Shown here in pieces: positions 20,119 to 61,856 of a stretch of DNA of 64,000 bases. The notes beneath the pieces are model-generated. The model was not told the DNA's origin. It saw nothing but the letters and a program-made list of their open reading frames with translations, and did not search any database. The stretch is from positions 6,450,001 to 6,514,000 of the forward strand of contig CM119371.1 of NCBI GenBank assembly GCA_051294905.1. Direction: 5' to 3'. The stretch comes from Botryllus schlosseri (Eukaryota). A program made the position numbers and the translations under genes. The first letter of the stretch is position 1; every line of letters starts with the position of its first letter.

Positions 20119-20983
20119 CTCTGGCACATTTTAACAAGCGAAAGCTTGCTTTGTTCCGACTCCAGTGAGTTTAAAGCATTTGGCAACTACGCCTTTGCCG
20201 AGAAATGGACCTCTCGTGTATGGTTCCCAGTAGAGCAGGGATCCCCAACCTTCTTTTGGCTGTGGCCAATTTTCGGGTTTGAAATTGTTATGTGGCTCAC
20301 CTCTTATCCCAGAGTCATATTCCTGTTCAATGAGTGGTAATCGCCACCAATTTCTGTAAAATTTGCGCATTTTCTCTTAATAATCGTATCTAAATGTGGG
20401 CCTGTAGGGACAAGAAATCGCGCCAAGCGCGACGCAAATTTCCAGTTAAATAGATATCTTCCAACAAACAACCGACGATGTAATTTTGGGCCCCTTGGAG
20501 ATCACCCTCATTCGGGGGTTTAGGGTGCGACAGTTACGGTAATCTTGTGTACCTCAGCTGTTCCACTCACGTAGCGAAACCCAACAATCCAATGTCTAAT
20601 CTCTGCATCCACTCTGTGATTGGTGTTTTAGTTCCACTATGGTGGGAAATAATATAACCATTCTGGGATACTACAGAGATGCGGAAAAAGAACTTTCATT
20701 ATACTAGCTGTACAATTTGATAGTAAGTATTGTACCTATTGAAGTTGCAGTGTCAGAACATTAAATCCAATGATACAATCAATTCATGTACAATTGTACA
20801 TTATGTACAATGACTTCAAGGCCGGAGATTTTCAGACCACCTCCAAAGATTAAACTTTCACTATAAATCTACAATTCTTCAAATAGCCCTGTGGCCCACC
20901 TCCATTTACTCCTGTGGCCCATCCTTTGAGAATCCCTGCAGAAGAGTCATCTCTTTCGTGGCAAGGTATACTTTTTCAGACAT
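20119..20983 (-). pseudogene. PLK1: PLK1-like pseudogene exon 1 (unit A), split by a MITE
   Basis: PYTRGPFLGKGVVAKCFKLTGVGTKQAFAC*NVPE followed by a GT donor, compared with PLK1 [35 protein letters not shown]. A stop replaces the catalytic Lys. Possible ATG at 20983. Confidence 0.85.
20236..20938. mobile_element. hAT-type MITE inside PLK1 exon 1
   Basis: Ends CAGGGATCCCCAACC and TTTGAGAATCCCTG. TSD CAGTAGAG / CAGAAGAG. A related copy in the opposite orientation lies at about 31377-33746. Confidence 0.8.
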
Positions 20984-22010
20984 AATCGTGAAATCAAACG
21001 CTTGTCAACAAATGTACATCAATACTCACAAAATGTAGAACAATAGCTGTCTCTTTCATATTGTCCAGTGTTAATGCAATAGGTTGCATAAAATGTACAT
21101 GAAAAATATGTGGGCTCATACAGTATCATAGTCAGAGAGATGTAGTAATTGGTTCACCCTTCAGGGCAATCATTTGCCACCGCTAGCAGCGAAACAACGC
21201 TGAGGTATCTGCATCATGCATGACTCGAATCACTCAGGTAGGTACTGGATCATGCCTAGCTACAGTTGTCGACTTGAAATACATATAATTCAGCAAGTAT
21301 ATAAATTTTCAACTCGTTCAGATTCGATAAGTCACCAAGTATGCCTTTCTACATCAGCACATTGGTGATTGAACAATGAACATGTTCTAGGCAAAAATGA
21401 GTTTTTCATTGAAAGGACACCGGTACTGGAGGTCATTTCGAATTCTTCCAACCTTTTTTCCCCTTGATCGTGATTTTGCGTGACTTTCAAACTCAGCATG
21501 CTAATCCATATGGATATGATGCTTGTTTCAGAAAGTATCACATTTAAGATTTTTGATACCAACACGCAGAAGCATATGACGCTTGCAGTTAGTCTTCTTA
21601 GTACATGCTTCACCACATACCGTAATTTGACATGTATATTGCCCAAAATTTAACCTATTTTCTGTCCAAAAATCTGGGGATGCACTTCACGCATTGGTAG
21701 AAGTCTTGAAAAATCTATCTCGGAATGAAACTTGAAATCACACTTTTTTACATGTTTTTTGTCAATAACCCATCACATTCAGCCACCGTACCCAGTAATT
21801 TGTGATATAAGTGGTGCGTGTTGCCAATTATCGAAGAGAGAGGTGATGCATGCGCGCGCGCGCGCTAGCAATCATCGCTAATTTATAGCGTCAACGTCAG
21901 GCTTGAACAATCGCATCTCCAACAGGACATCTGCGCAAGATATAATCGCTAGCAGTAACAGTCGCATCTTCAACATGCCTGGTGCGCATGATATAGGCCT
22001 AATCGTTGGA

Positions 22011-23690
22011 CTATATTGTGGTGCCAGCATGCTCAGCCATATGATGCTTGAGGTGGTCCTTCCGAGTAAATGCTTTTCCACATATATCCCAATCACATGA
22101 ATGATTTTTGATTCCAGCATGCTTATTCATATGCAAATTGAGTGTACGCTTTTCAGTCACGGCTTCACCACATATAACACATGTATGATTTTTGATACCC
22201 GCATGCATATCCATATGAAGCTTGAGGGTACTCTTCTGAGTGAATGCTTTCCCACAGATATCACATTTATGATTTTTGATTCCAGCATGCATATACAAAT
22301 GAAGCTTGAGGTGAGCCTTCCTAGTGAATGCTTTACCACACACATCACATTCACGATTTTTTATTTGAGCATGCACACCCATATGACACTTGAGGGTCCA
22401 CTTCTCAGTGAAGGCTTTACCGCATATAGCACAAACATGATTTTTGATTCCAGCATGCATATCCATATGACGCTCGAGGGCACCCTTCCAAGTGAATGCT
22501 TTACAACATATAGCACATGTATGATTTTTGATTCCAGCATGCTTATCCATATGCAAATTGAGGGTCCACTTCTCAGTGAAGGTTTTACCACATATAGCAC
22601 AAACATGATTTTTGACTCCGGCATGCTTATCCATATGGCACTTGAGGGTACGCTTCTCAGTGAAGGCTTTACCACATATAGCACATGTATGATTTTAATG
22701 TCAGCATGCATATCCATATGACGCTTGAGGTGACCCTACCAAGTAAATACTTTACCATATACCTACATTCATGATTTTTTTATTCCAGCATGCACAGCCA
22801 TATGATGTCTGATGGAACCATTTGCATTGAATGCTTTACCACATATAGCACCTTCATGATTTTTGATGCCAGCATGCATATCCATATGAATCTTGAGGTA
22901 ACTCTTTCGAGTGAATGCTTTACCACATATAGCACATGTATGATTTTTAATGCCAGCATGCATATCCAGATGACGCTTGAGGGCAAGCTTCTCAGTGAAG
23001 GCTTTACCACATATAGCACATGTATGATTTTTAATGCCAGCATGCATATCCATATGACGCTTGAGATGACCCTTCCAAGTGAATGCTTTACCACATACAT
23101 CGCATTCATGATCTTTTATTCCAGCATGCACATCCATATGATGTCTGAGGGCACCCTTTTCAGTGAATGCTTTACCACATATAGCACATTCATGATTTTT
23201 GATGCCAGCATGCATAGCCATATGAAGCTTGAAGGTACCCTTCTCAGTGAATTCTTTATCACATATAGCACATGTATGATTTTTAATGCCAGCATGCGTA
23301 TCCATATGAAACTTGAGGTGACTACTTCGAGTGAATGCTTTACCACATATAGCACATGTATGATTTTTGATGCCAGCATGCATATCCATATGAAGCTTGA
23401 GGACACCCTGTCGGGTGAATGCTTTACCACATATAGCACATTCATGATTTTTACTGCCAGCATGCATATCCACATGACGCTTGAGGTGACTCTTTCGAGT
23501 GAATGCTTTACCACATATAGTACATGTATGATTTTTGATACCAACATGCATATCCACATGACGCTTGAGGGCAGCCTTCCGAGTGAATGCTTTACCACAT
23601 ACATCACATTCAACGTTGTTGACGCCAGCATGCATATCCATAAGATGCTTGAGGTAACTGTTCCCGGTAAATGCTTTCCAGTTTCCAATA
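22011..23690 (-). pseudogene. Tandem C2H2 zinc-finger array A (about 19 repeats), broken by frameshifts and a stop near 22690-22790
   Basis: ORFs 22769-23641 and 22011-22634 consist of 28-aa CxxCGKAFT.K..LK.HMDMH-AGIKNH units with an 84-bp period. The intervening unit has indels and a TAG. Further decayed fingers lie at about 21490-21650. The 5' ORF (9 intact fingers) could still be expressed. Confidence 0.85.
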
Positions 23691-24251
23691 TATTTCGAAT
23701 CGGCGTTTTTTCAAGTCGTGATCAATAGTTAATACTAGATCCACAGCAGGCTTTTCTTTATGACACTAAAAAAAGACCTACATATTTTCAGCATATAAAC
23801 TCAGTACAATTATAGTATGGCCACATCTGCAATGCATGAAAGTGTAGAACTATTTTAAACAAAGATCATTATAAGATTGTAGACAGAGCAATCACGATAC
23901 CCGGATTTTAATGTAGTCTTATTGTATCATTTAGTCGGACATCATCAATAGCACTATTGGATTGGTATAACAAGTTTCGATCATTTTAGTAACAAATAAT
24001 TCATAACACGAGAAATAAAACACAGCGCTGAGTGACAATAGCGCACTTTGATGCATATCTGCAATTGGATTATTAGTTGAATTTTTCTAGAACCATAAAA
24101 AAGTTATATATATACCTCTGACCATAAACATTGAGCAGCTTCAATCAATATGCCTTGAAGTAGTTTGCTCGGTAATAAAATTCACATTAACAATGCTACT
24201 TTTACTTTTTATATTGTTTGAAAATGGAATGGTATATTCGTATTGAAATGA

Positions 24252-26700: not shown

Positions 26701-28190
26701 CTTGGTATCAGAGGGTGTCTGATTATTGATTACAGTAATACTGAGTTGAACAATTTTGCAGATAAGCAACTCCAAGCCGAATCTGTTGTATGTTATAACG
26801 AGTCTCTGCTTGGGTGATGAAGCACCTTCTTTTGTAAACCTCCAACTGGTAACAAAAATTGAAGCTTATTGGATTGAGGGAATGAAACCAATACCAATAT
26901 TTGTTGGACACATCTGAATCAGTGGTTCTCAAGCTCTTCGAATTCCCGGACAGGTAGAATTTGACAACAAATTTAGCAGATCGGTGAATATTCCAAGTTT
27001 GATACTTCATTTAATGCTGCCTTATTGATATTAGACACGATAAACGTACCGCTGGCAAAATCGAATGATTGAGTGATTCGATTGCGCATCGAGTATTAGG
27101 CTTCTGTAGTTGAGTGTCAGTTATTATGGGGCCATGCCAGTACGGATAATGGGAAAAGTATGTACCTAATAATAAAACAGGGCCATTTCTAATAAGCACG
27201 AAAATGACAAATGCCTGTACAGCAAGCTTGACTCATTTCGCACGATGAAGTTCTCCTGTAGAATTTTCAGGAAAACCAGAATTGAGATTAGAATTACAAC
27301 GAGCACAGAAATATCTCTCTAATCAGATTAGAAATAGATCAACAGCATTTCACTTCAATTAGTCTAATTGGAGAACAAGAATTAAATATTTGTGCGAGCT
27401 GTTAGTAATAAACTTGAGAGACATTGCCGTTGTAGTAAGGAAATGAGTGTGATTCAAACTGCGATGGAGACTGATCTCTTGACACATTTAGTGTCTCGTG
27501 ATCATTCACGAGCAGTACCTGAAATTAACATGAAATCACAGCACCGCCCATTGTAGGCTTGCCGATAACACCGTGTCAATATCACACTCCGATATCTTAC
27601 ATATCGGCATCTCACTATGAGAGACAAGAAGATGTCAGCTATTTTCGTGATGCCCGAACATAGTAGTAGGGAGTCAGAGAACTATAATTTACGACTGCTA
27701 GACTGGGGATATTGATAGACCTCTGATAGCTTACAAGTGTGTAGCTGCAGTCTTTCTAGTTTACTTCATGATCAATCAAAGTAATGACCGCGAACCTGTT
27801 CTTTTTTTGAAAATGTGCCCAACGCTAGAAGAATATTGAGGTTATCGGTGAAGGTACTAGGTATCGGTTTTATCAGCGCCAGCTCAGAAACTTGATATCG
27901 GTCAGGCTCTATTTATAATAGGCATGTAAGAATGGCAACTTGCAAGTTCTTGTCAATATTTATGATTTCACATGAGTATTTCCAAAAAGGCAATGGTAAG
28001 AGCAACAAATATAATCAGTCACATAAAGTCCTTATGTCTACAAACTTTGCTCACCTTTGGTACAATTTTACAAGCGAAAGTTTGTCTGCCTTTCAACAAA
28101 AATGGACCCCTCGTGTGTAGTTCCCCAGTACAGTCATCCAACAGGAGTTCGAAGATCTTTCTAGTAGTGACGTCTATTCTTTCAGCATTA
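26701..28190 (-). pseudogene. PLK1: PLK1-like pseudogene exons 1-3 (unit B)
   Basis: Exon at about 28190-28055 reads HTRGPFLLKGRQTFACKIVPK then a GT donor, with a deletion in the Gly-loop region. Exon at 27518 to about 27440 matches the plus-strand exon at 56655. Exon at about 26850-26701 reads LEVYKRRCFITQAETRYNIQQIRLGVAYLQN. Confidence 0.85.
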
Positions 28191-29525
28191 TCATGATATC
28201 AAATCGGCAAAGTGAAATATCGCATATTACCACATGTGCACAAGACTTGCACAAGCTACTGGATTTCAAAATGCACAACTAAACTAGAACGAACGACATT
28301 TAAAAATCCGCATCTAACGAAAACACAACGAAATATAATCAATTCCTAAGCAACTCATCAACTATGTATAACCGGAATTTCAACACGAACATCAGTATCA
28401 AATTACTGAAGAATCAGATAGACAGAACTAACATAATACTGGATAAACTAAGCAATTATCAATGGCCGCAAGACCATCACATGAAAGAACACTGATCACG
28501 TCGATATTCAAAAAATATACGACAGTCAACAAATGTAGGCTACATCAATACTCAACAAATGTAAAACTATAGCTGTCTCTTTCAGATTGGCCGAGTTAAT
28601 GCAATAGGTCGGATAAATATCATAAAATGTGCACGAAAATATGGGGCTCATATAGTATGATGATAGTCAGACAGATGTAGTAATACAGTCACTCCAGGAC
28701 AATCACCTAGCACAGCTGGCATCGTAAAAATGATTAGGTTGCTACCTACTGCACAGCACATACATTATTCATATTACCTCAGGTACTAGATCATGTCCCT
28801 CTCCCGTTGTCTTCTTGAAATATACATAATTCAGCAACTCAATAAATTTACAATGACAGTCATCTATTTAAGATTCGATAAGTCACCAAGAATGCTTTCC
28901 TACATTAACACATTGGTGATTGATCATTTTTACATGTTCTAGCAAAAGAGAGTTTTTGATTAGAAGGATACTGTAGGTCATTTCGAATTCTTCCGAACTT
29001 TTTTTCACTTCATCGATACCTTGCGTGATGTTTTCAAATGATGATATTATTAATTACCTGAACTAAACATGTCAGTGACATGACACTAGCATCATATGTT
29101 CAGAGTAAATACTTCCATACACATTTTGCATTCGGATGTGATCATTCCAGTTTGCATATCGGTATGAATCCTGATGTTGCGAGTCAATCTACACATTTTG
29201 TACAAACACCACATTTTCAATCAACGTCACCATATATATATATGACACTTTACTATTCTTTCAAGGGCCGTTCTTTTCCATAAACACCTCACGTTTGAAC
29301 TGATCATGTCAATCCATATATTGCTTGATGGTAGCCGTTTCAAGAAGTTTTACATTTCCTATTTTGATACCGGGATGCAGAACCATATGACGCTTGTAGT
29401 TAGTTGGTGTTCTTAGTAAATGCTTGCCCGCTTATATCACAAATATATTATTTGATGCCAGCATGTATGATAGAATGAAGCCTGATATGTTTCTTCTGAA
29501 AATATGCTTTTCCACATATATCACA

Positions 29526-30947
29526 CTATTGATTTTTGTTGCCAGCATGCATATCCACATGACGCTTGAGGCTCCTCTTGTCAGGAATTGATTTCTCACA
29601 TATTTCATGAACATGATTTTTGATATCAGCATGTATATCAGAATGAAAGTTGAGATGACTCTTCTGTGTAAATGCTTTTCCGCATATATGACATTTATGA
29701 TTTCTGATGCGAGCATGCATGTGGGAATGAAGCCTGAGATTACTCCTCTGTGTAAATGCCTTCCCACATATATCACATTTATGATTTTTGATACCAGCAT
29801 GCATATTCATATGATCCTTGAGGTCGCTCTTCACTGTAAATGCTTTTCCACATATATCACATTGATGATTGTTGATGCCAGCATGCATATAAATATGACT
29901 CCTTAGGCTTGTTCTCGCAATAAAATCTTTCCCACATATATCACATTCATGATTTTTAATGCCAGCATGCATATTAGCATGAAGCTTGAGATAGCTCTTC
30001 AGTGTAAATGCTTTTCCACATATATCACATTCATGATTTTTGATGTCAGCATGCATCTCCACATGACGCTTGAGGCTCCTCTTTCCAGTAAATGCTTTCC
30101 CGCATATATCACAAACATGATTTCTGATGCCAGCATGTATATTAGAATGAAGCTTGAGCTGACGCGTTTGTGAAAATGCTTTTCCACATACTTCACATTC
30201 ATGAATTTTTATTCCAGCATGCACATCCATATGACGATTGAGGCTACAATTTTCAGTAAATGCTTTCCCACATATGTCACACACATGATTTTTGACTCCT
30301 GCATGCACATCCATATGACGCGCAAGGCCACTTTTTAAGGTAAATGTTTTCCCACATAACTCACAAACATGATTTTCGATGCCGGCATGTATATGCATGT
30401 GACTCTTCAGTCGGGCTTTCACAGTAAACGCTTTACCGCATACATCACATTTGTGATTTTTGAGACCAGCATGTATATTATAATGACACTTGAGATTACT
30501 CTTTTGCATAAATGCTTTTCCGCATATATCGCACTCATGATTTTTGACACCAGTATGTATATTTGTATGCTTCTGGAGGTCCCCCTTCCGAATAAATGCT
30601 TTTCCACATACTTCACATTTGTGATGTTTGAGACCAGCATGCATATTATAATGACACTTCAGATTGCTCTTTAGTTTAAATGACTTTCCACATATATCAC
30701 ACTTATGACTCTTGACACCAGTATGTATCTTGGAATGCATCTGGAGGTCACCCTTCCGAATAAATGCTTTTGCACATACGTCACATTTGTGATGTTCAAG
30801 ACCAGCATGTATACTATAATGACCCTTCAGATGACCCTTTTGTATAAATGCTTTTCCGCATATATCACATTCATGATTTTTGATGCCAGCATGCATATCC
30901 ATATGAACCTTGACGTGAACTTTCTGACTAGATGCTCTAGCACACAC
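29526..30947 (-). CDS. Tandem C2H2 zinc-finger protein B (15-16 fingers; 5' end undefined)
   Basis: Uninterrupted 473-codon frame of CDICGKAF..K..L..H...H-AGIKNH repeats. The first in-frame ATG is about 30902 and an upstream in-frame TGA suggests a spliced exon. Decayed fingers continue past the stop to about 29050. Confidence 0.85.
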   Translation of the reverse strand: MCARASSQKVHVKVHMDMHAGIKNHECDICGKAFIQKGHLKGHYSIHAGLEHHKCDVCAKAFIRKGDLQMHSKIHTGVKSHKCDICGKSFKLKSNLKCHYNMHAGLKHHKCEVCGKAFIRKGDLQKHTNIHTGVKNHECDICGKAFMQKSNLKCHYNIHAGLKNHKCDVCGKAFTVKARLKSHMHIHAGIENHVCELCGKTFTLKSGLARHMDVHAGVKNHVCDICGKAFTENCSLNRHMDVHAGIKIHECEVCGKAFSQTRQLKLHSNIHAGIRNHVCDICGKAFTGKRSLKRHVEMHADIKNHECDICGKAFTLKSYLKLHANMHAGIKNHECDICGKDFIARTSLRSHIYMHAGINNHQCDICGKAFTVKSDLKDHMNMHAGIKNHKCDICGKAFTQRSNLRLHSHMHARIRNHKCHICGKAFTQKSHLNFHSDIHADIKNHVHEICEKSIPDKRSLKRHVDMHAGNKNQ

Positions 30948-31376
30948 TTCACAATTCTCAAAAAATTGTCACAAGGTGCATTCAGAACATAAAGCTTAGC
31001 GATATGGCAACAGCCCACACCCCATATGTATTAAACAGTATACTAATCTAAAGAAAGAGCACATAGGCGTGATTATTGTGGCTATGCGGCATACATCGAA
31101 TTTCCACATCAGCGTAATCAATAATAATTAAACAAACCGATGCAACAAGATAAAGACAAGACAATGTTAGAGACGACAAAATCACCATTTTGATCAGCAA
31201 ACAATTGCAGCGATGCGACCTACTCAATACGAAGTAAGACACCTATTGTCTTGGTCATGGGAACAATCACTGATTGGGTGCCTGCTTTCTCGTTTGTTTG
31301 ATAATTATTGTCTGCTTGCCACATTCGTATCCCACAATCGCAATCACTTCAGCATCAACTGATGACAAGCTAGTCG

Positions 31377-33746: not shown

Positions 33747-33754
33747 AGCTAGTG

Positions 33755-46209: not shown

Positions 46210-47637
46210 ATGACAAGGAAGATGTGCTGGATCTGTGGAAAGAACATCCATTGTAAGGACGGATTGAAAGCTCACTTGGGATTCCACCATATAGACAGAA
46301 ATACCGAATGTGAGATCTGCGGAAAAACCTTTGCTGCAATCACTTTATTGAAAAAACATTTAATATCGCACACTTATTTGAAAAATCATGAACGCAAGGG
46401 CATTGGCAAAGGGTATAATCCGATCGGTCACTTGAAAAGACATGCGGATACACGTACTGTTCACCTTGGAGTCAAAAACCACGACTGTGACATCTGTGGA
46501 AAGTCGTTTGTGCGGGTTGGCGACCTGAAAATGCATGGAAATATACATACTGGAAGATATGCATGTCAGATCTGCGGAAAAGCGTTTGCTCGGATCGGAG
46601 ACTTGAAAACACATGAAAATACACATACTGGAGTCAAAAACCATGACTGTCAGATCTGTGGAAAAGCGTTTATCCATCTTGGTAACTTAAAACAACATGA
46701 AAATACACATACTGGAGTCAAAAACCATGCATGTCAGATATGCACAAAAGCGTTTACCCAGCTTCGTGGCTTGAAAAGACATGAAAATACACATACTGGA
46801 GTCAAAAACTATGCATGTGAGATCTGCGGAAAAGCGTTTGCTCAGATCGGCCACTTGAAGACACATGAGAATACACATACTGGAATCAAAAACTATAAGT
46901 GTCAGATCTGCGGCAAAGTTTTTGCCCGGCTTGGTGACTTGAAAAGACATGGGAATACACATGCTGGAGTCAAAAACTATGCATGTCAGGTCTGCGGAAA
47001 AGCGTTTACCCAGCTTGGTGACTTAAAAAGACATGGGAATACACATACTGGAGTCAAAAACTATGGATGTCAGGTCTGCGGAAAAGCGTTTACCCAGCTT
47101 GGTCACTTGAAAGATCATGGAAATACACATACTGGAGTCAAAAACTATGAGTGTCAGATCTGTGGAAAAGCGTTTATCCATCTTGGTAACTTAAAACGAC
47201 ATGAAAATACACATACTGGAGTCAAAAACTATGCATGTCAGATCTGCGGAAAACTTTTTGCCCGGCTTGGTGACTTAAAAAGACATGGAGATGCACATAC
47301 TGGAGTCAAAAACTATGCATGTCAGATTTGCGGAAAAGCGTTTACCCTGCCTGGTTACTTAAAAAGACATGGAAATACTCATACTGAAGTCAAAAACTAT
47401 GCATGTCAGATCTGCGGAAAAGCGTTTACCCGTCTTGGTAACTTGAAACAACATGAAAATACACATACTGGAGTCGGAAACTATGCATGTCAGATATGCG
47501 GAAAAGCGTTTACCCGGCTTCGTGACTTGAAAACGCATGAGAATACACATACTGGAGTCAAAAACTATGCATGTCAGATCGGCAGAAATGTTTTTTCCCA
47601 GCTTGGTGACCACAAAAACCATGGACATACACATTAG
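46210..47637 (+). CDS. Tandem C2H2 zinc-finger protein C (15 intact fingers)
   Basis: Open 475-aa frame with an ATG start. Homogeneous 84-bp repeats encode CQICGKAF..LG.LK.H.NTH-TGVKNY. A candidate acceptor (ATACAG) lies just upstream and decayed fingers follow the stop. Confidence 0.9.
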   Translation: MTRKMCWICGKNIHCKDGLKAHLGFHHIDRNTECEICGKTFAAITLLKKHLISHTYLKNHERKGIGKGYNPIGHLKRHADTRTVHLGVKNHDCDICGKSFVRVGDLKMHGNIHTGRYACQICGKAFARIGDLKTHENTHTGVKNHDCQICGKAFIHLGNLKQHENTHTGVKNHACQICTKAFTQLRGLKRHENTHTGVKNYACEICGKAFAQIGHLKTHENTHTGIKNYKCQICGKVFARLGDLKRHGNTHAGVKNYACQVCGKAFTQLGDLKRHGNTHTGVKNYGCQVCGKAFTQLGHLKDHGNTHTGVKNYECQICGKAFIHLGNLKRHENTHTGVKNYACQICGKLFARLGDLKRHGDAHTGVKNYACQICGKAFTLPGYLKRHGNTHTEVKNYACQICGKAFTRLGNLKQHENTHTGVGNYACQICGKAFTRLRDLKTHENTHTGVKNYACQIGRNVFSQLGDHKNHGHTH

Positions 47638-50795: not shown

Positions 50796-50811
50796 GTTTT
50801 TGTCGACGTCG

Positions 50812-53800
50812 TTCTTGAGTAGTGCAGAAGAAGGGTAAAAGTATTTCCTCATTATAAACGTAATGTACCTCTAACGGCGCCAGTCGAAAATGCATTAGAT
50901 CTGTCATGTTCATTACGAGCAGACTTGGATAACCAGATAATTGTTTTTCTATAATGTATTGGGCTAAATATGGCAAAGTACTTGTAATGTAATTCCAATC
51001 TAATTAATCAACTAATTCTTTATATATAGTGTGAAACGAGTCAGGATTGGTGAACTATTCTCATGCTTATGATAATCAAATCCAATTTGACATGAACTGA
51101 ACTTGATGATTTCTTTTCCCAACTGAGTAATTAAATTCTAATCTAATTTGGATGGGTGTTCAATATATTTCTAATCTACTTTGAATAATGTGATAATTTT
51201 CTGGTGACACAACTGTGATCACTAGGGCTGGGCACAATGATTTGATGACTCAAATCTGAATCGAGTATCAATTCAAATAATTTGAGTCGAGTAGTAAGAA
51301 ATGACTGTTTCGAGTGCTGACAATATACGCTCCATGTCTCAAAATGGAAAAATTATATTAACCATGAGCTGAATTGAACAATTGAGAATTATATTTCTTA
51401 CTGTGAAAAGTTGTGAACCTTGATTGGTCGTATCGCAGTATACGAAATATGTAATACAAAGCTATGCACGTTGCTGAAAATGACATGTCTGTGAAGTTGT
51501 GAGCAACCTAAAGCATTGTCCCATAGTGTGATGAAATAGTAATGGTAAAAAAAGTGCAAAATAATCTTTATAATATGACTAGAATAGGTATCATATTCTT
51601 TGTGGTGTTGCTATGAAGTTAACATGAGTGACTCAAACTCGTTACTCGATTCAGAAGCAAATCACTCAGGTACTTTATTTTAGCCAGCCCGATTTATTTC
51701 ACGTTCAGTATCAAAAAGCAAGGATTAAATAAAGTTTGGAAGGTTCACCGGTCTGCAAAAACTGTCTTCAAATTTGACTGTCCCTCTAACTCAGAAAGGT
51801 TGCGAACCACTGATTTAGATGATGTGTCTAACAAATATTATTGTTTTTCACATTCCAGCGATCCAATTACCTTTTATTTTTGTTGTCAGTCGCTGATGAA
51901 AGTTCACAAAAAAAGATGCGTCATCACAGAACCAGAGACTCGTTATCACACGCAACAGATTCTGCTTGGTGTTGTTTATCGTCACGATTGTAAAATCATT
52001 CACAGAGATATCAAGGTAACATTGTATGCAGTCGTGCTTTCGTAAATAATCTTCGAAAATTATGTCAGTACCAGAGCCGACCGATTATTGGTTTGTCAAT
52101 TTGGGGATAAAACTATGCACCTTATATACCACTAACGTAAATCATTGATTGCGCTACAAGCTCTCTAAAGTGATCTTGTACAAACTACTGTATTTTCAAC
52201 ATACGCAACAAGAATGAGAACTGCTCACTTTTCATAATTCTCCACTAGAACCAACGACCATTGAAAATCTGCTACTAGCTTACTGTAATACACAACTTGC
52301 TAATGATTTTTAGGTTGCTAATTTACAAATAAGCTGAGCTGTATCGGGGATAGAATTGACATCTCAAATTTGTGGGGTTTCGAGTTTGAAACAGGGGTGC
52401 TCTCGAACCGTAATACTCTTGGTTTGAGTCAATACACAATTTGACTCGAGTCGTGTCACTAGAAAATAAGGACTGGTTTCGAGTCATGAATCTAGCCATT
52501 ACAGCCCTGCCACTGTGAATATAATGCCGGTACTACATCTCATTATAAAGATAATTTAGTCATTTTTCGACCATATCTATTTCACTGTACTCTGTGACAA
52601 TGCTGTGGCTTGATCACAATGTAGGCAATACCGCCTATCGAGGTTTACAGCCTTGCACAGTGGAAATGCCATTGAAACTATAATTCTCATTGATAAATTA
52701 CCGTAACTGTTACTGACAACAAGTGTATATTTTCAGTAGATATACGAATATAGCGACACGATACCAACACTAACCTACCATGATTTTTTTTGTCCACAGC
52801 ATGTTGTCTATTGACCCATCTCAACGACCTTCTGCGCAATCGAGTTGCGTCCAGCTACATACCTCTACATACCTCAAAAACTACAGACCATCTGCTTGCC
52901 TATCACAAATGTCAACGCGAGACAATCTTCACCGGTGAGTTTTTACAATTCCACAGCAAGTTTACGATTAGATCTTAACCAAAATTGGATTTTTGAGCCA
53001 ATACCGATAAAATCGATAGCTATAGCACCTTCACCGATAAGCGAAGTCGGACAAATAAAAGATTTTCTTCTTTTCCGAATAAGATAAGCATTAGAATAAG
53101 AGCAGCCTTTTTTTATGCCAAGATATGGCTAACTGAGTTTATGCGAACTCGGAAAGTAGAAATAAAGTGAATGTTGATCAGCTTTTTACTCGAAAAATCG
53201 GCTCTCACTGCTTGGCGCAGAATCATTGCATTTGATATTGAAGTCGAATTGAAGTTGTGGATAGTTGTGGCCAGCCCTACTCATTGATGTTATCTTGTGG
53301 TCCCCGAAAGTAGGCTACTTTGTAAATTTTTGGTATTTTCTCTCTCTCTCAAAGTGACTTATGCATGAGACTGTCGTGTCATAATTCCTGGATCGGTTTT
53401 CAATTAACCTCCATTTGTTTATCTCTAAAGCATCAGCCAATTGGTTCAATCAGGTAATTGTAGTTGTGTAAGTTTATTTAGAAGAGCGAAATGTTGGTAA
53501 TCAGATTCTCATTTAATTTATGACATGTTGCTATGCTCTCATATCAAGCCTAATCTAATTTCTGGGTTATCCTTAAAATGCTACCAGAGAACTGTATCAT
53601 ATCATGCAAAATGAACCAAACTTGCAGTACCGACATTTTCCATTCTCACATATACGAGAATCAACTTTAACCTGATAAGAAGTTATATTGATTCAATTTC
53701 CAAATTTTCATGATCTCACTCATTCCAATTCTAATCTAATTAGGAAAAGCTGCATAGTTACGAATCTAAATGTGCTCTGGTTTGGAAAAAAGCTTTGTAG

Positions 53801-54913
53801 CTATCACAAAATCGTCAAATTCTAATCCATCTTTGAAATGAATGTGTAGCTATATTTTTAATTCTAACCGAAGCAAAAAAAGCTGAAAATTCTCTAGTTA
53901 TGCAACTCTGGCGCTAGCAATCTTGTAAGAAACCAAGCGGCCCAGGCTTGCAAGAACTCGTTTGATAGGAATTACCTTCATTGTGAATTTCTTATATTTT
54001 ACTATACTGTTTATTGTATATTTTAAAGTACCTCGTATTTCATTTTGCAGGCGCGCTACTACAGAGACACAAACCTGTTGGTGACAAGCCAGAGCGACTA
54101 TCATATGCAGCAACCAATCACCAGACTTTCAAGCTCTGCTCAAGAAATTGATTGATGCCAATCCCAGGCAGAAGTCTGCTGTAAATATAAGTTGGTATTT
54201 AGGCCTATATTATAACCACTGACAAGGTTTGATTTTAAGTTGAATTGCCATATGAAATGTAAGCTACTTCTACAAACCAGTGATTTTAATGTGCTGTAAA
54301 ATGGCGTTATATTGTATGTGGTCGTATAAAAAGCAGATACATAAACTTTCCACGTCATCCATACTGTTACGACGTGATAATGAGAGAATCTCGACTAGAA
54401 ACCTAACACCTGATTCAGAAATGACAAGATGCTACATATAAGTGATTATTAACAATGGACGTCGCTTGGAGCTAACCCCTGATAACCTCACGAACAGTCT
54501 TTACTGTGTGGCATGAAGATGGCTGATGTATAATTGCAGAATTGTCTGAAATTTTACCAAATGGTAAAATGATTAGGAATTCCATTCTCTTATCAAGTTG
54601 ACAGATATTAGAGAATAGTCCATTGAATATTCCCGTTTACAAATGTCAGTAAAAGTCAAAACTAATGTTGAAATTCAAAGTTATTAGGTATCCTCGGTCC
54701 ATATCGGTTTCCTCTAATATCATAGATGCAAGTAACTGCTCTCGCTCTTAAATGACATTGTCATTAAGATTGTTAGCACTGGACCAATGTGTAATTTATG
54801 TATATCAAAAATGCTTTCACTTCAACAGATGAGGCGGAAGAGCCACAGCAGCCGTACCACTACCAGTATTTTGATTAGCAAATGGGTGGATTATACGGAT
54901 AAAGTCGTGTTTG
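50812..54913 (+). pseudogene. PLK1: PLK1-like unprocessed pseudogene, partial copy C
   Basis: Exons: about 50812-50835 LE*CRRR then GT; 51890-52015 SLMKVHKKRCVITEPETRYHTQQILLGVVYRHDCKIIHRDIK then GT; about 52800-52935 MLSIDPSQRPS..YIPQKLQTICL; about 54051-54190 DFQALLKKLIDANP; 54829-54913 EAEEP/ISKWVDYTDKVVFG (start of polo box 1, frameshifted). Confidence 0.9.
51223..51692. mobile_element. TAGGGCTGGGCA-family MITE in a PLK1 intron
   Basis: TAGGGCTGGGCACAATGATT ... TAGCCAGCCCGA; a reverse-orientation relative of 24492-25006. Confidence 0.75.
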
Positions 54914-57900
54914 GTATGGCCACCCATGTTTCAGACATCAATTTATTAAAATTTCTATCAAATCAATGCATCACAAGATAGGAGGGGACCGAAACGACTT
55001 GGTGAAGTCTTTTAATCAGACACTCACCTTGCCTCAGCATGGCACACCTCCATGAAAGTGCGACGTCTCCACGGGATCTACCACAGTGTGTGCAAAACAA
55101 AACTTCCTTGGAGCTTGAATATAATGGCATTCATACGACATGTCCACCAACACCAATTCACCATTGTCTCCAATAACAAATTACCCTAATGCAATTCACA
55201 ACGTTTATAATGATTTATATTACCAAATTCACTATAGACCTAGTTTACCGAAGGATGAATTCATCGAGGGCCAAGTTCAATGGTCAGTGTGGTTCCAATC
55301 ATGATACTTGAATCTCTTCCTATCCAAATAAGGAAACAGTTCCCTATTTGAAATTAAAATTTTGATTCATATGATAGTTTTAAATCCATAAATCCTGGTT
55401 ACCAAACAATCTTACAAAATGTGAGTTAATGTCTGTGATTTTATTACTATTTGTGATTTTCACCAGAATGTTGGCGAGCGACCCATCTCAACAATCCTCT
55501 GTAAAGAAAGTGCGGGCCAGTGAATATTTCAAGGGCTTCATTCCACAGAAGCTACCCACAAACTGCTTGAACAGCTTGCTTGCCCATACTTTCAGAAAGC
55601 CAACTACAGCAAAGGAGTCCTCTGCAGAGTTTGATCAATAAGATTTTTTCGCAGGTCTTTGCAAAATCGAGTTCCTAAGTGATTCGATTCTGAATCGAGT
55701 CTCATTCATGATAACATGAGCCCAACCTATATCGTATTTTTAAGATAATAGCGATAAGTACCACTTTCACTGATATCTCCGACGTATTCATCTGTTATTG
55801 AAATAATATGGCAACTAGCTTAAGGCACATTTTCAAACCTTCAGATCATTTATTCAAACAACTGGCGGCTGTTACTATGATAAGACATGAATTAAACAAC
55901 AAAGGACGCTTGTAAGCAGAGGCAGTCAGTAACAATACTACTTATACTTACTCAGAGTACTCAAGTAGGTTTTGCCATATACTTGCATTATTTACTCAAG
56001 TCACTCAAATGATTTTAGACGACTTGTGTACTTCCTATGTAACAGTTCAGTGTTCATGCAAAACTAGGCGTATAATATTTACTTGATTACCTTCCTTGTA
56101 AATCGCAACTTCTGCTTATAATAGAGTAGAAATTACGACATTACTTCTATACTCGAGTTCGAACGACGACTATTTTAACCACTTGTAAGTTATAAGAATA
56201 TTCCACGTTAGTGCAGATTTCAGTCCTCTGACTGCACGCTACCATGTTGTCACGTCACGAAAATTGTCGATATTTTTACCTATAATGGGCAATACCTTTC
56301 AAACTCTACGATAGACTCGACATTTTTGGCCAATCCATATAATCAGTCGTGCTCTCATTACATGGTACCTTATTAAAATAACAGGTGAACATTCGTGAAC
56401 TGGTAATATCTCCTGATTGTACATTTCAGCTTCTTCCTAGTTCAAAACTCATTCCGCATATAAAACAGTATCTGAATACAATGCAAATTTCATCTGACTT
56501 GTGCAAACTGCTGTACATCAGAATGCTAGAAACTAGAAATAGAACTAGAACTACTCAGTTTTCAAAACTAACTAAAACTAGCCGTACTCAAAAACAGTTG
56601 GTTATTTGACCGTCTACTATCGAGCTCGGTAATTTGGACAAAACTGTATTTCAGGCACTGCTCGTGAATGAGCATGAGAAAGACAAAATGTGTCAAGAGA
56701 TTTAATCTTCATCGCAGTTTGAATCACAAGCATGTTGCTGGATTTCATGGATTTTTTCAAGACAATGATTATGTCTACATCGCTCTCGAGTTGTACAAAA
56801 GAAAGGTAAAAGTATTTCCATGATATAACTGTAATGTCTCCAAACGGTGGAGGTCACAATTCATCAGCCCTGTAACGTTCATTAGGCCTACTAGCAGACT
56901 TGAACAACTAGACAATTATTGTTGTCTAATAATACTAATTAGAACCAAATACTGGTAATCTACTTGTAATCTAATTTGTTGAATGTTTCTAAGCTCTTAA
57001 TTCTATTGTGATTAATTTTCTGGTTTCCTGAAAATGCTGCAGGAGAATTTTATAGTACGTAACTAGCAAAGCTTGGTGTACATACATTTTGTATTCCGTT
57101 ACTTTATGACAGGGAATATAGAACTGATGTCAAGTTACCTTGATTTTTGTTGTGTTGCTTTCATGAATTAAGCAATTCTAATCTAATTCACAACTTTCAA
57201 CTATGCATTCACAGTAACGTGTATTGACTCGGAAAACTTACCGCGTTCCTCTTATCAAGAGCGACCGGCATGATAAAGGACATAAAACAGGTTAGATTTG
57301 AAACCGAATCGCTGTGTTCAGGTTCTCTACCACCAATCCGTTATTCTTTTCTAATTTGAGGAAAATGTGTAGCTATAATTGTAATTGTTATCTAGTTTGG
57401 AATGTCCGAAAATTTTCTAGTTACATTACTCTGATCACTTGTCAAGGGCTGGGCACTCTGATTTCAGGACTCGAACTGAATCGTGTATGTACTATAATGA
57501 TTCGAGTTGAGTAGTGAGAGATTATTTTTTCGTGCAACACTGAAAGTATACGCTAATTGTCGAAACAGGTTGAGAAGTGCAGCTTTGAATGTGCCTGACA
57601 AATACTGTAGTTGTTTGCATTCTAGCAATCCCATGAGTGTTGATTTTTGTCGCTGATGGAACTCAACAAATGAAGGCGCGCCATCACAGAACCAGATACT
57701 CGTTCTTATATAGACCAGATTGTGCTTTGAGTTGTTTACCTTCATGATTGTAAGATCATTCACAGAGATATCAAGGTAACATGGCTTGCAGCGTTGCAGG
57801 AACCAGATATGTACAAACTACTCTATTTTCAAAACGCGCGATAAGAGCTATAATTACCGTAACGAACATTAAGAATCTGCAACTAACAAACATACATACA

Positions 57901-59094
57901 ACTAACTAATAACGTATAATGCAAATTACTGTATTGTAAATGAGCTGAGAAATATTGGAGATAGAATCGGCATTTCGACTTCTGAATGCACTGATTTTGA
58001 CCCCAGAAATTCACCCCCAGCCTCCCTCACTTATAGGAGTTATGTCTCTGATCTAGCAATGGCTGCAAGAACATCAAACAACAGAACACCGGTATCGCGA
58101 TTCACGCCAAACGTTGGCACATGTTTTGTAGCTGTTTGGCAACTAAATTTTTTGAAACTCTGCAACTAGAATTAGAACTGGAACTAGTCAAGTTAACAAT
58201 AGTTAGTTGACCTTCAACTAACTACATTATTAGTTTAGCTATATTGCCTACATGTTGAACTGAATGAGAAATTTGTCTTGACAACTCGAAAACCTATTTC
58301 TGAAAACCAACAAGATTGTAGATTTGAGTCCAGCCACAAACGTCGACTTTGACAGCCAAACTAAGAATGCATTTTGAGCCACACCCAAATAAATATCCCC
58401 GGAAATTTATGACAAGAATGGACATGGGTTGGGAGTGGACACCTAGTTGGGTTTCGTCATTATTTCTCAACATTGAACTTGGTATTTAAAAGGAGTCATA
58501 AAAAAATGACTCGAGTCAGACTCGAGTCGAGTCATCACAACCCTGATTTAAATAACTATACATGATTCAATCATATAATGTAGTTCCGCGCCTCCAACAG
58601 TCTTGTCAAATCCCTTCATTGTGACTTGTGAAAATTACTTTTTGGGGCCTTATTCAAGAGTTTTGTACTGTAACTTGATCGTTGATTTATTGCCGATGAT
58701 GATTTGTACCACATCAGGAGGTCGCCAACTAGCTATACAAATTCGAGTGATTGACTGGTTTTATTCTGAGAGTAAAGTACTACTTTTTATGTGGTCATAT
58801 GGAGGAAGAAAACCGACCAATCCACATTTCAACCTAATGCACGCTTGCAAAGGATTGATTTTTTTCCAACTCAACACAAATGTATTGCTATTGTGGATTA
58901 ATTGTATCAGTTAATTATTTTACTCGACAGGTGCTGCTAATACAGATGATACACGGAAACCTGTAGGTGACAAGCCAATCAACAGACTTTCCTATGGCAG
59001 AAATGGCAGCTCGGCTCAAGAAATCGATCGATACCAATCCAACCTTGAAATCCCCTATAAATATCTGTGAGTATTCATTTTGTGACAACTGATT

Positions 59095-59521: not shown

Positions 59522-60336
59522 GTTATGGCAATCATTGGCAATCTGTCAGTTACATCTTTAGTCGCTGAACCATGTTATTAAGGCGACTTACAGGTACCGA
59601 GTACCGTAGTGGTACGCTCCAACCATGTAACAACAATGGGCCGTTCGGCGTTCTGACATTTCAATCACTAGGACACATTCAATAATATATTTATAGTTTC
59701 TGCTCCTATATTTGAAGATATTTGGCCATGAAATTAATTGCCTACTGATCAGAAGTATACTCGAATCCAGGATTGGAATTACAATGCTCCACCTAAAAAT
59801 GTTTTGATATCAGATCAGTCTCTATTATCAATCTGAAATATTCAAAATATTCATAGTAGCTGCAAAATTATAACCCGATAGCTTTTATGATGGCATCATA
59901 CATTTGTCCGCCTATATGATGTCTATATGTTATGATTAATATATATCAAGTACAACAACAATTCTATTCAAATAGTTATAAACGTGATGTTTTTTTTTCT
60001 TACCAGGCCTAAATTTATACAAGAGTGAATCACATTTTGACGATGTGTGTTTACTGATAGTCTGGTTGATCGGCTTACTTTCAATAGTACAATTCATTCC
60101 CGCCGAATAATGCCTACTTGGAAAGACATAGAATACCCCTATAAATGCTGCGGCCCGCGGCGTCGTCAAAACGGGAAAACTGGCCCGCAAGCACATTTGA
60201 GTTTGAGACCTCTGATCTAAAAAATAGTACATTGAACGCTCTCGTATTCGACATTTCGTGCTGGTGACGTCATATTTTGTGTAACGATTGTTGATATACG
60301 CTGTTCTTCCGAATTCTCTACTAGTTGCTGACGATT

Positions 60337-60370
60337 ACCCCTGACGAGCGTCAGCCGAAAATATTCGGGT
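60337..60370 (+). ncRNA. Minimal type I hammerhead ribozyme in an approximately 150-bp repeat (60235-60390)
   Basis: ACCC-CUGACGA-GCGUCAGCC-GAAA-AUAU-UC-GGGU, one mismatch from the copy at 24252-24285. Confidence 0.75.
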
Positions 60371-61856
60371 TCATTTCAATATGAATATACTATTCAATTG
60401 TATATTGAAGTTCTGTACCTCAAAGAAGCTGTATAAAATATAATCAAAACTATAATTCCTGTAAATAAATCAAATCTTAATGGCAAGGGACGTATCATTT
60501 CAATTCTCCGAAGTCATCTCTCACTCGAATCATACCACTTGATACTCAATTTATATTGGAGTACTCGAATCATTGGTCACCTCTCTACTCATCATACTGA
60601 CTACTTTGAGCATCTACTGATTCCACTTAAATAGATTAGAAATAAACCAGCTTACCTCTACTTGAGTATCAACACTGACTATTGTGCACAATTTTTCGGG
60701 CGCTGTAATGCATTTTCTATCATGCAGGACCACACCAAAATGATTTTGTATCCTCTGATGGGAGCCTCGACTTGCATCTACCGAGAACACAGCTTCATAA
60801 CGTACAAGCAGAGCGTGATTGAGACATACGGATGTAGCTGAGAGCTAGGCCATCGATTTCGGTACTCCAGGACCATGCTGGAAAAACTCACCTCCAACCA
60901 TTCGTCTGCCGAGCAAAACTAACGTTTGCCAGAAGACGATTTATTGACATTGTGTATGATTTCCGATAGAAATGATTTGGGTGGTGTAGTACGTACTGGA
61001 TCAAAAACCAGGACTTTGTCAGCAGCAGTTTGAAAAGTGCGGCGTAGCGTTTATATTTGACTTGACATCTTTTTCCTACTTCATCTTCTCTCCCTCGATG
61101 GAGTTTCTTTTGCCTTTCCTTTGTAACGCGAGTTGATAATACCTATCAATAAATATCATCCGACGGATTGGTATCGTGTGCTCAATTTATGGCAGATACG
61201 TTGAGTGACAAGGCTTGTGTAAACCACCATTCTAGTTGACGGTTAGCTAACTACTTTTTTTAGTAGTTCTAGAGTACTGCTGTGGATTTTCTAAGACAAA
61301 GTAGTTTGGGGTTGAGTTCGCATAAGTTTTAGTGAAATTGTCTGAAAACAGGGCTACGAAGGGAAATTATTCATTGGAATGCCGTAGTTAGTATTATCAC
61401 CGAACTGGTAATATAATAGGACATTACCCCGCGGGCCACGCTAAACCCTCTTGCGGGCCATATTCTGAGCCACCCCTGATATAGACAGGACTGGTAAGCT
61501 GCTTTAAAACCAACCATATCGGTCAATCGCATGCTTTAGGATTAAAAGTCATAACACGTGTATAGGTCAGCTACGAGGGGTCAAAAGCGATATGGCGGAA
61601 CTATCAAGTCCTCAAGTATTGGCTAAATAAATTCTTTCTGCGCGAGGAAATAAGTTAATCGGTGTCGGCGAGTTCGTATTTAGGAAAATGAATGTTTCGA
61701 ATGATTCTTCGTACTGGATATGCACACATTATGAAACAAAAAATGTCGCTGTTCATTGAAAGTCATTGATGGGTATGACCATCAAGTCGTTCTGAAGCAA
61801 TCTCGAGAACACAATCACTGTGTTACTTTTGGCATAGTATGATAGTAGATGCCAAC

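What the first reader, a model, noticed from the sequence alone, without database searches (positions are those of the whole stretch)
20119..60922. Repeated zinc-finger-array plus PLK1 cassette in tandem and mirror-image arrangement
Seen: three ZNF arrays are each followed on the same strand by intron-bearing PLK1 exons (A 23.7 to 20.1 kb, -; B 30.9 to 26.7 kb, -; C 46.2 to 60.9 kb, +). The spacers between ZNF and PLK1 exon 1 in A and B are homologous (21000-21460 vs 28525-29000). Every PLK1 copy is disabled, while two ZNF frames stay open and have diverged from each other. Inference: the duplicated unit is ZNF+PLK1, with a mitotic kinase gene carried along in a lineage-specific ZNF expansion. 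A former functional link (read-through or ZNF-kinase transcript, or a selfish amplifying cassette) is possible but not shown.
Basis: partly seen in the sequence, partly recalled or inferred. Interest (0 to 1): 0.8.

Follow-up and report, generated by a model that had tools for sequence, protein, structure and literature searches.

The report
Duplicated zinc-finger gene with dead PLK1 pieces
A zinc-finger gene and the broken remains of a neighbouring polo-like kinase 1 gene copy were duplicated together within this stretch of an animal genome, which is an ordinary by-product of zinc-finger cluster growth and shows no sign of a functional zinc-finger/kinase unit.

Summary
The window has three C2H2 zinc-finger arrays: A 22011-23710 (-), B 29526-30968 (-) and C 46201-47637 (+). 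All 48 of 48 intact C2H2 motifs lie in these arrays. All 14 of 14 PLK-profile hits lie downstream of an array on its strand, against 0 hits in reversed or shuffled sequence. The pieces match PLK1 best. They keep introns and are all broken.

- Copy A keeps one PLK exon only.
- Region C holds at least two partial tandem copies with scrambled exon order.
- C shares no spacer with A or B, apart from one probable interspersed repeat.

A and B are collinear over about 3.7 kb: array, spacer, PLK exon 1 and the start of its intron. PLK exon 3 is no better conserved than its intron (75.9% against 73.9%), so the kinase pieces drifted neutrally. The zinc-finger arrays show an excess of third-position change.

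Four RNA runs give almost no depth over A or B and no zinc-finger-to-PLK junction. Four reads show a spliced PLK1-like transcript from elsewhere.

Verdict: local tandem plus inverted segmental duplication with an unprocessed pseudogene passenger. The functional link is unsupported and interest is low.

The parts
22011..23710 (-). Zinc-finger array A. Two ORFs in different frames (22769-23710, 313 codons; 22011-22694, 227 codons). 16 intact and 3 broken fingers. Probably a pseudogene.
21604..22000 (-). Element X. It cuts the tail of array A directly after the last open finger, and finger-like remnants continue at 21536-21620. It is absent from B. A related copy lies at 49033-49530. Probably an interspersed repeat.
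21004..21491 (-). Spacer of unit A, homologous to the spacer of unit B (28525-29038) at 73.4%.
20247..20850 (.). Repeat inserted in the spacer of A, with no counterpart in B. An inverted copy lies at 33128-33745 (69%).
20119..20235 (-). PLK1 copy A: the glycine-loop exon only (about residues 42-75 of the reference PLK1 P0151). It has an in-frame stop and a GT after 20119. Homology to B continues to 19984 and then stops.
29526..30968 (-). Zinc-finger array B. 480 codons open, with 16 intact fingers and 1 broken. There is no in-frame ATG before the first finger. Degenerate fingers continue to 29298.
28525..29038 (-). Spacer of unit B, homologous to A.
28055..28133 (-). PLK1 copy B, exon 1 remnant. 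It has a gap of about 39 bp (13 codons by eye) relative to A, and a GT donor after 28055.
27443..27518 (-). PLK1 copy B, exon 2 remnant. An AG acceptor lies before 27518. It has a 1-nt deletion (frame change). About 120 bp, including the 3' half of the exon, is deleted relative to C2.
26734..26845 (-). PLK1 copy B, exon 3. It has 6-bp and 8-bp deletions and has lost the HRD catalytic motif.
46201..47637 (+). Zinc-finger array C. 478 codons open, with an ATG at codon 4 and 15 intact fingers. A degenerate finger continues to about 47724.
50797..50834 (+). PLK1 copy C1, 3' end of exon 2 with a stop and a GT donor. It abuts a repeat fragment at 50703-50797 that also occurs at 16274-16368.
51890..52015 (+). 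PLK1 copy C1, exon 3 (residues 126-167). It is open, with AG and GT boundaries. This is the best-preserved piece (profile i-E 6e-18).
52800..52917 (+). Weak copy of the kinase C-lobe exon (about residues 270-300), i-E 0.26. It is a paralogue of 55467-55623.
54838..54942 (+). Polo-box 1 fragment, out of order relative to the next piece.
55467..55623 (+). Kinase C-lobe exon (about residues 270-314), with an AG acceptor. It is open until a stop near 55638.
56655..56805 (+). PLK1 copy C2, exon 2 (residues 76-125). It has AG and GT boundaries and a 1-nt frame change.
57650..57775 (+). PLK1 copy C2, exon 3. It has two in-frame stops and its acceptor is deleted.
58282..58443 (+). PLK1 copy C2, exon 4 (residues 167-222). 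It has two stops and a 3-codon deletion.
60716..60898 (+). PLK1 copy C2, polo-box 2 and the C-terminal exon. It has one in-frame stop.

Best explanation
This is a local segmental duplication in a zinc-finger gene cluster. An ancestral block held a poly-C2H2 zinc-finger gene followed on the same strand by a DNA-level, intron-bearing duplicate of the PLK1 gene. That block was copied in tandem (A and B, both minus strand, about 7.3-7.9 kb apart) and most likely also in inverted orientation (C, plus strand). A further partial tandem duplication occurred inside C (C1 and C2, about 5.8-6.0 kb apart).

The kinase part is a passenger. It was already dead, or died at once, and has since drifted neutrally while repeats and deletions broke it up. 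The zinc-finger arrays kept evolving as coding sequence, and also by duplication of fingers within each array. B and C are still open and A has recently broken. An intact, expressed PLK1 lies elsewhere in the genome.

Shown: the anatomy, the A/B collinearity, the intron homology between B and C, the defects, and the equal identity of exon and intron. Inferred: that C arose from the same block, the order of events, and unequal or non-allelic recombination as the mechanism.
For: 1. All 14 of 14 PLK profile hits lie downstream of an array on its own strand. Controls gave 0 hits in the reversed window and in each of 5 shuffles.

2. A and B are collinear over array, spacer, PLK exon 1 and the start of its intron. 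The pairs are 22014-23608 with 29360-30953 (70.7%), 21004-21491 with 28525-29038 (73.4%), 20203-20235 with 28100-28133, and 19984-20148 with 27924-28084 (71.3%).

3. PLK copies share introns as well as exons. The pairs are 26750-27095 with 51643-51991 (71.4%), 27209-27407 with 56889-57089, 27448-27525 with 56648-56728 (86%), and 51822-52031 with 57589-57791 (76%). They are therefore unprocessed duplicates, not retrocopies.

4. B against C1: exon 3 identity is 85/112 (75.9%) and the 190 alignment columns of intron before it give 133/180 (73.9%). The exon shows no constraint.

5. Every copy carries stops, frame changes or deletions.

6. Zinc-finger differences by codon position are 0.249/0.232/0.340 for B against A and 0.378/0.203/0.483 for B against C. 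Open frames of 480 and 478 codons stand beside side frames of at most about 124 codons.

7. Relatedness agrees between the two parts as far as it can be compared. Zinc-finger proteins: B-A 58-60% identity, B-C 45-50%. PLK exon 3: C1-C2 80.3%, B-C1 75.9%, B-C2 68.5%.

8. Four reads of run X13 join 28054 to 27489 with 30 other letters between them (table 5c). 28054 lies one base beyond exon 1's last base (28055), and the 30 letters replace the first 29 bases of B's exon 2, which starts at 27518. This is a spliced PLK1-like mRNA from another locus using the same intron position. By eye, the 30 letters keep the frame open and match 27 of 30 bases of C2's exon 2 start.

9. The abstract of PMC2443715 (seen in the listing) states that C2H2-ZNF clusters are thought to expand mainly by tandem duplication.
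Against: The spacer of C shows no homology to that of A or B at E<=0.01. The exception is element X, which interrupts A's array and is missing in B, so it is probably an independently inserted repeat.

C has no recognisable PLK exon 1, and its PLK pieces are out of order. Descent of C from the same ZNF+PLK block therefore rests on order, strand and PLK intron homology alone.

The third-position excess in the A/B zinc-finger comparison is modest (1.4-fold). Array B has no ATG before its first finger and no RNA support.

The genome-wide distribution of PLK1 pieces is unknown because no genome is held.
Confidence: 0.75

Rival explanations
1. Mobile or selfish cassette. The ZNF+PLK block, or the PLK fragments alone, were picked up and spread by a transposon that captures host gene pieces with their introns (Helitron-, Pack- or hAT-type capture). 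The three units would then be insertions, not local duplications.
For: The window is rich in repeats, with families shared between the units' introns and other places. A repeat fragment abuts the 5' break of copy C1 at 50703-50797. Gene fragments with introns in one orientation are what such captures leave; this last point is recalled knowledge, not a call.
Against: No inverted repeats bound units A or B. No transposase, Rep/helicase or reverse-transcriptase domain was found in the ORFs scanned: 104 + 150 + 150 + 41 ORFs. Only zinc fingers, kinase and polo pieces and one THAP domain at 1264-1551 appeared. The copies are adjacent and about 27-30% diverged, and A/B homology fades rather than ending at a shared sharp terminus. 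No look-alike was found in the scan's other windows (which are empty look-ups).
Confidence: 0.07
2. Functional link. The zinc-finger genes read through into PLK-derived exons (a ZNF-kinase or ZNF with a PLK-derived 3' end). Alternatively, the oppositely oriented PLK copies yield double-stranded RNA that regulates PLK1.
For: All three units have the same strand and order, and the minus and plus copies stand mirror-wise. Some splice signals are kept: AG/GT at 51890-52015, 56655-56805 and 55467.
Against: Mean depth over 19.7-23.7 kb and 25.0-31.7 kb is 0-0.66 per bin in 4 RNA runs. No joint links an array to a PLK piece. 93-99% of laid reads run on into unlike sequence, so they come from repeats or paralogues elsewhere. 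All copies are broken. Exon identity equals intron identity. B and C copies are only about 70-76% alike over exon 3 and its intron, though one 81-column stretch of exon 2 is 86% alike; this seems too little for long duplexes. None of 10 long PLK relatives carries zf-C2H2.
Confidence: 0.04
3. Assembly artefact. The repeated units are mis-joined haplotypes or collapsed or expanded repeats, not real neighbours.
For: Tandem and inverted repeats are typical sites of assembly error.
Against: The units differ by about 27-30% and by large insertions and deletions, far beyond allelic difference. Contigs of 5 runs from 2 studies hold 72-87% of the sampled words of 26700-31000. One of these may be the source sample.
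Confidence: 0.02

Closest known systems
Tandem and segmental expansion of C2H2 zinc-finger gene clusters (for example mammalian KRAB-ZNF clusters; PMC2443715, abstract seen)
   Same: Poly-finger genes stand in a local cluster as diverged tandem and inverted paralogues. Identity is higher within an array than between arrays. Some members are decaying to pseudogenes.
   Different: No KRAB, SCAN, BTB or other N-terminal effector domain was found. The best database relatives are only 29-50% identical generic poly-ZNFs. The linker is an unusual H-A/T-G-I/V-K-N-H/Y. Here a piece of an unrelated gene travels with the unit.
Unprocessed (duplicated) pseudogenes, that is gene fragments carried in segmental duplications
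   Same: The copies retain introns with AG/GT boundaries at the position used by the expressed gene. The copies are partial. Stops, frame changes and deletions have accumulated, and exon and intron have diverged equally.
   Different: The source is a single-copy-type mitotic kinase. At least four partial copies lie within 41 kb, and the exon order in region C is scrambled.
Polo/PLK gene duplicates with retained function (Drosophila polo duplications; PMC11708218, abstract seen)
   Same: A polo-like kinase gene has been duplicated within a lineage.
   Different: Those duplicates are expressed and affect fertility. Here every copy is broken, and copies A and B gave no RNA depth in the four runs laid.

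Membership tests
Polo-like kinase 1 (as gene) | Protein kinase domain whose closest relatives are PLK1 | tested here: met
   The kinase piece 51632-52042 gives PDB hits with PLK1 first (E 8.9e-10), then PLK2 and PLK3. Pfam Pkinase hits are E 1.5e-7, 0.0015 and 0.0055, all under the curated cut-off because the pieces are short. The PLK profile gives i-E 6e-18.
Polo-like kinase 1 (as gene) | Two polo boxes at the C-terminus | tested here: inconclusive
   A polo-box 2 piece at 60716-60898 gives PDB PLK1 E 1.1e-8 and Pfam POLO_box E 0.0021, under the cut-off. A polo-box 1 piece lies at 54838-54942, i-E 6.9e-4. The two pieces belong to different partial copies.
Polo-like kinase 1 (as gene) | Uninterrupted reading frame with catalytic motifs | tested here: not met
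   All copies carry stops, frame changes or deletions, and B has lost the HRD motif. These are pseudogene pieces, not a PLK1 gene.
Unprocessed (DNA-duplicated) pseudogene | Introns retained at the parental positions; no poly-A tail or intronless structure | tested here: met
   AG/GT-bounded pieces are separated by 0.5-1 kb introns that are homologous between copies. Spliced reads from an expressed paralogue use the same exon 1/exon 2 junction (table 5c, 4 reads of one run).
Unprocessed (DNA-duplicated) pseudogene | Neutral divergence of exons | tested here: met
   B against C1: exon 75.9% (85/112), intron 73.9% (133/180). This rests on one exon only.
Poly-C2H2 zinc-finger gene | Tandem C-x2-C-x12-H-x3-4-H fingers with conserved linkers | tested here: met
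   Pfam zf-C2H2 E 9.5e-78 for B, 1.3e-77 for C, and 1.3e-54 and 6.1e-36 for A. There are 16, 17 and 15 intact motifs.
Poly-C2H2 zinc-finger gene | Complete, expressed gene (start codon, transcript) | tested here: inconclusive
   C has an ATG at codon 4 of the open frame. B and A have none before finger 1. RNA depth over A and B is about 0 in 4 sub-sampled runs.
Segmental duplication (tandem/inverted) | Collinear homology that includes non-coding sequence between the copies | tested here: met
   Met for A and B across 19984-23680 and 27924-30956. For C it is met only for PLK introns and exons (against B) and the array. The spacer is not homologous.
Gene-capturing transposon (Helitron / Pack-type) | Defined termini (inverted repeats or hairpin end) and spread of copies to unlinked sites | tested here: inconclusive
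   No inverted repeats bound the units. Helitron ends were not looked for. Spread cannot be tested without the genome.

The most novel reading that the evidence does not exclude
The ZNF+PLK1 block could be a unit that has multiplied well beyond this window, as a selfish or transposon-borne cassette. Alternatively, its mirror-image dead kinase exons could feed small RNAs that tune the real PLK1. Neither is excluded, because the rest of the genome, small RNAs and region C's transcription could not be examined.
Probability: 0.05. Interest if true: 0.55.

Novelty: new member of a known kind. Interest (0 to 1): 0.15.

Why it matters
Its main use is for annotation. The PLK1-like pieces here are unprocessed pseudogene fragments. 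They should not be called as kinase genes or fused into ZNF-kinase gene models.

The locus is a clean small example of how a growing zinc-finger cluster drags a neighbour's remains along. The shared dead passenger gives a neutral marker for the order and age of the zinc-finger duplications.

If the block proved to be amplified genome-wide, it would become a case of gene-fragment capture involving an essential mitotic kinase. Nothing seen here points that way.

Tried and rejected
- Whole-genome search: no genome is held for this window.
I sent stop-free ORFs instead.
- Pfam found no kinase or polo hit in the 104 minus-strand ORFs of units A and B. These pieces were found only with PLK proteins and a PLK profile.
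- A word-indexed protein search with the kinase exon found nothing. The exhaustive search gave 210 hits at E<=0.001. Many are short single-exon predictions, which I read as short contigs, not as evidence of amplification.
- The search with array B returned only generic poly-ZNFs at 29-50% identity, no close relative and no gene model of this locus.
- The look-up of sequencing runs: no RNA holder was listed for 26700-31000.
- Earlier findings of the scan: three look-ups, all empty.
- A weak kinase-like match at 457-528 (E 1.2) sits behind a poly-A-like run and has no flanking kinase motifs. I rejected it as chance.
- The labels 'hAT C-terminal fragment' for 16273-16368 and 50703-50798, and 'GIY-YIG/Penelope-like' for ORF 44084-44431, are resemblances I recalled. 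Pfam gave no hit for them, so I do not claim them.
- tRNA and Rfam scans of the window found nothing relevant: one doubtful ARAGORN call at 56529-56626 and 0 Rfam matches.
- Literature: 0 papers hold 'PLK1', 'pseudogene', 'zinc finger' and 'segmental duplication' together.
- I considered a Ka/Ks estimate for the arrays and replaced it with counts by codon position, because the finger register between arrays is ambiguous.

Full report
**What the window is.** The sequence is animal-like DNA, 35-44% G+C. No whole genome is held for it. Stop-to-stop ORFs show three long zinc-finger frames and little else. Pfam scans covered 445 ORFs in four calls:
- 104 minus-strand ORFs of 25 aa or more in 19.0-22.0 and 25.0-29.55 kb;
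- 150 of the 167 listed plus-strand ORFs of 28 aa or more in 47.5-60.8 kb (the array-C ORF and the 16 beyond 60.8 kb were left out);
- 150 + 41 ORFs elsewhere, mostly of 62 aa or more.

These gave only C2H2 fingers, kinase and polo-box pieces, one THAP domain (1264-1551, minus strand) and a few chance-level hits.

**The zinc-finger arrays.**
- Array A (minus strand) is split into two frames, 22769-23710 and 22011-22694. It has 9 + 7 intact fingers and 3 broken ones.
- Array B (29526-30968, minus strand) is open for 480 codons, with 16 intact fingers and one broken.
- Array C (46201-47637, plus strand) is open for 478 codons, with 15 intact fingers.

All 48 of 48 stop-free C2H2 motif matches in six frames lie in these arrays. 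B and A proteins are 58-60% identical, and B and C 45-50%. At the DNA level, fingers within an array are more alike than arrays are to each other: 78-82% within A and within C, against 71-73% between A and B and 63-65% between B and C. The arrays have therefore also grown or homogenised internally.

Differences by codon position are 0.249/0.232/0.340 for B against A and 0.378/0.203/0.483 for B against C. This is an excess of third-position change, as expected of sequence that evolved as coding. C has an ATG at codon 4 of its frame; B and A have none before finger 1. Database relatives of B are generic poly-ZNFs at 29-50% identity.

**The PLK1 pieces.** Pfam sees only four short pieces, all in region C and all under the curated cut-offs. 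PDB searches rank PLK1 first for the kinase piece (E 8.9e-10; PLK2 and PLK3 follow) and for the polo-box piece (E 1.1e-8).

An exhaustive search with the best exon gave 210 proteins at E<=0.001. Named relatives include an octocoral PLK1 and, in its cluster, a full-length 662-aa PLK1-like protein, P0151. P0151 has a kinase domain and two polo boxes.

I mapped the pieces with tblastn using seven of these proteins and P0151. I also used a profile built from 8 of the 26 hits of 280 aa or more. The profile gives 14 hits at i-E<1, of which 8 are below 0.01. It gives none in the reversed window or in five shuffles. The three minus-strand hits all lie at 20.1-27.5 kb, downstream of arrays A and B. The eleven plus-strand hits all lie at 51.9-60.8 kb, downstream of array C.

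**Anatomy of each copy**.
- **A:** one exon only (20119-20235, the glycine loop), with an in-frame stop and GT after 20119.
- **B, exon 1 remnant (28055-28133):** it has a 13-codon gap.
- **B, exon 2 remnant (27443-27518):** it has a 1-nt deletion and has lost its 3' half.
- **B, exon 3 (26734-26845):** it has 6-bp and 8-bp deletions and no HRD motif.
- **Region C, in order along the plus strand:**
  - the end of exon 2 with a stop (50797-50834);
  - an open exon 3 with AG/GT (51890-52015);
  - a weak C-lobe exon (52800-52917);
  - a polo-box 1 piece (54838-54942);
  - the C-lobe exon again (55467-55623);
  - exon 2 with a frame change (56655-56805);
  - exon 3 with two stops and no acceptor (57650-57775);
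  - exon 4 with two stops (58282-58443);
  - polo-box 2 with a stop (60716-60898).

Region C therefore holds at least two partial tandem copies, not one gene. C1 lies at about 50.8-52.0 kb and beyond, and C2 at 56.6-60.9 kb. The blastn pairs are 50794-51005 with 56765-56976 and 51822-52031 with 57589-57791. Some pieces are out of order.

**Homology between units.** A and B are collinear over these pairs:
- array, 22014-23608 with 29360-30953 (70.7%);
- degenerate fingers, 21490-21610 with 29298-29425;
- spacer, 21004-21491 with 28525-29038 (73.4%, E 1e-81);
- PLK exon 1 and the start of its intron, 20203-20235 with 28100-28133 and 19984-20148 with 27924-28084.

Below 19984, A matches nothing in B even with a 7-base word search. 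A carries an extra 0.6-kb repeat in its spacer (20247-20850; inverted copy at 33128-33745).

B and the C copies share exons together with introns. The pairs are 26750-27095 with 51643-51991 (71.4%), 27209-27407 with 56889-57089, and 27448-27525 with 56648-56728 (86%).

The only other A-C similarity is element X, 21604-22000 with 49033-49530. In A it starts directly after the last open finger, and finger remnants follow it. It is absent from B. I read it as an interspersed repeat, so it is not evidence that C's spacer descends from the A/B spacer. No inverted repeats bound the units.

**Selection.** Between B and C1, exon 3 is 75.9% identical (85 of 112 aligned bases). The 190 alignment columns of intron before it give 73.9% (133 of 180). 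The kinase exon has therefore drifted like intron since the copies split. This fits a passenger that was dead at or soon after duplication. It rests on one exon, and the other pairs have repeat-disturbed introns.

**RNA.** Contigs of 5 runs from 2 studies hold 72-87% of the sampled words of 26700-31000. No RNA holder was listed. I laid four bulk RNA runs of the same species label, of which about 6-13% of each was read, on 17001-37000.

Mean depth per bin over 19.7-23.7 kb and 25.0-31.7 kb is 0-0.66. The only well-covered bins (17.0-18.3 kb and 23.7-25.0 kb) are repeats. 93-99% of all laid reads run on into unlike sequence, so they come from other copies. No joint links an array to a PLK piece.

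Four reads of one run join 28054 to 27489 with 30 other letters between them. 28054 lies one base beyond exon 1's last base (28055), and the 30 letters replace the first 29 bases of exon 2, which starts at 27518. By eye, those 30 letters keep the PLK1 frame open and match C2's exon 2 start at 27 of 30 places. This indicates an expressed, spliced PLK1-like gene elsewhere with the same intron position.

**Interpretation.** The simplest account is local segmental duplication of a block made of a zinc-finger gene and an adjacent unprocessed PLK1 pseudogene. It was duplicated in tandem for A and B, probably in inverted orientation for C, and partly in tandem again within C. Neutral decay, deletions and repeat insertions then acted on the kinase part.

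Relatedness agrees between the two parts as far as it can be compared. A and B are closest for the arrays. C1 and C2 are closest for PLK exon 3 (80.3%, against 75.9% and 68.5% to B).

A functional ZNF-kinase link, a mobile cassette and an assembly artefact are each unsupported, for the reasons given under the rival explanations. None of 10 long PLK relatives carries zinc fingers.

**Comparison with what is known.** Cluster growth of C2H2 genes by tandem duplication is standard (PMC2443715; abstract only, seen in the listing). Polo duplicates that stay functional are described in Drosophila (PMC11708218; abstract only). No paper in the library holds 'PLK1', 'pseudogene', 'zinc finger' and 'segmental duplication' together. 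This says only that this particular pairing is not described, not that the kind is new.

**Verdict.** The unit reading is right for A and B and plausible for C. The functional speculation is unsupported. It is an ordinary pseudogene passenger in a zinc-finger cluster, of low interest.

Noticed in passing
window 24571-25007, 59095-59522, 51218-51605 (inverted), 57441-57554 (inverted), 7926-8045, 60427-60575: An interspersed repeat family, 68-81% alike between copies, sits in the introns and spacers of the PLK copies. RNA reads cover the copy at 23.7-25.0 kb (depth about 2-15) but nearly all run on into unlike sequence, so the family is transcribed from other copies.
   Followed up: partly
window 17020-17085: A stretch of about 65 bases is covered by many reads in all four RNA runs (86-269 loose ends before 17020 and 50-183 behind 17085, with a shared consensus on the left side). 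It appears to be a short piece shared with an abundant transcript elsewhere. There is no tRNA or Rfam match.
   Followed up: partly
window 1264-1551 (-): An ORF with a THAP domain (Pfam E 1.9e-7, above the curated cut-off). It may be a transposase-derived or THAP-ZNF remnant at the left of the cluster.
   Followed up: no
window 19840-19930: A cluster of short GC-rich inverted repeats (17 nt at 94%, 15 nt at 93% complementary) lies just beyond the point (19984) where unit A's homology to unit B ends.
   Followed up: no
window 16274-16368 and 50703-50797 (inverted): An 83% identical 95-bp repeat whose translation reminded me of a hAT transposase C-terminus; this is recalled, and Pfam gave no hit. 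The copy at 50.7 kb abuts the truncated 5' end of PLK copy C1.
   Followed up: partly
window 44084-44431 (+): A 115-codon ORF that by eye resembles a GIY-YIG endonuclease module of Penelope-like elements; this is recalled. Pfam found nothing at E<=0.01.
   Followed up: partly
window 6962-7422 and 44244-45352 (inverted): Two blocks, 90.7% and 93.1% identical, are the most similar repeat pair in the window. They lie far outside the cassette and are probably a young transposon.
   Followed up: no
window 39134-39387 and 41402-41554; 40610-40763 and 40848-41004: Local direct and inverted repeats (82-88%) lie in the relatively G+C-rich 38-42 kb stretch between the two mirror halves.
   Followed up: no
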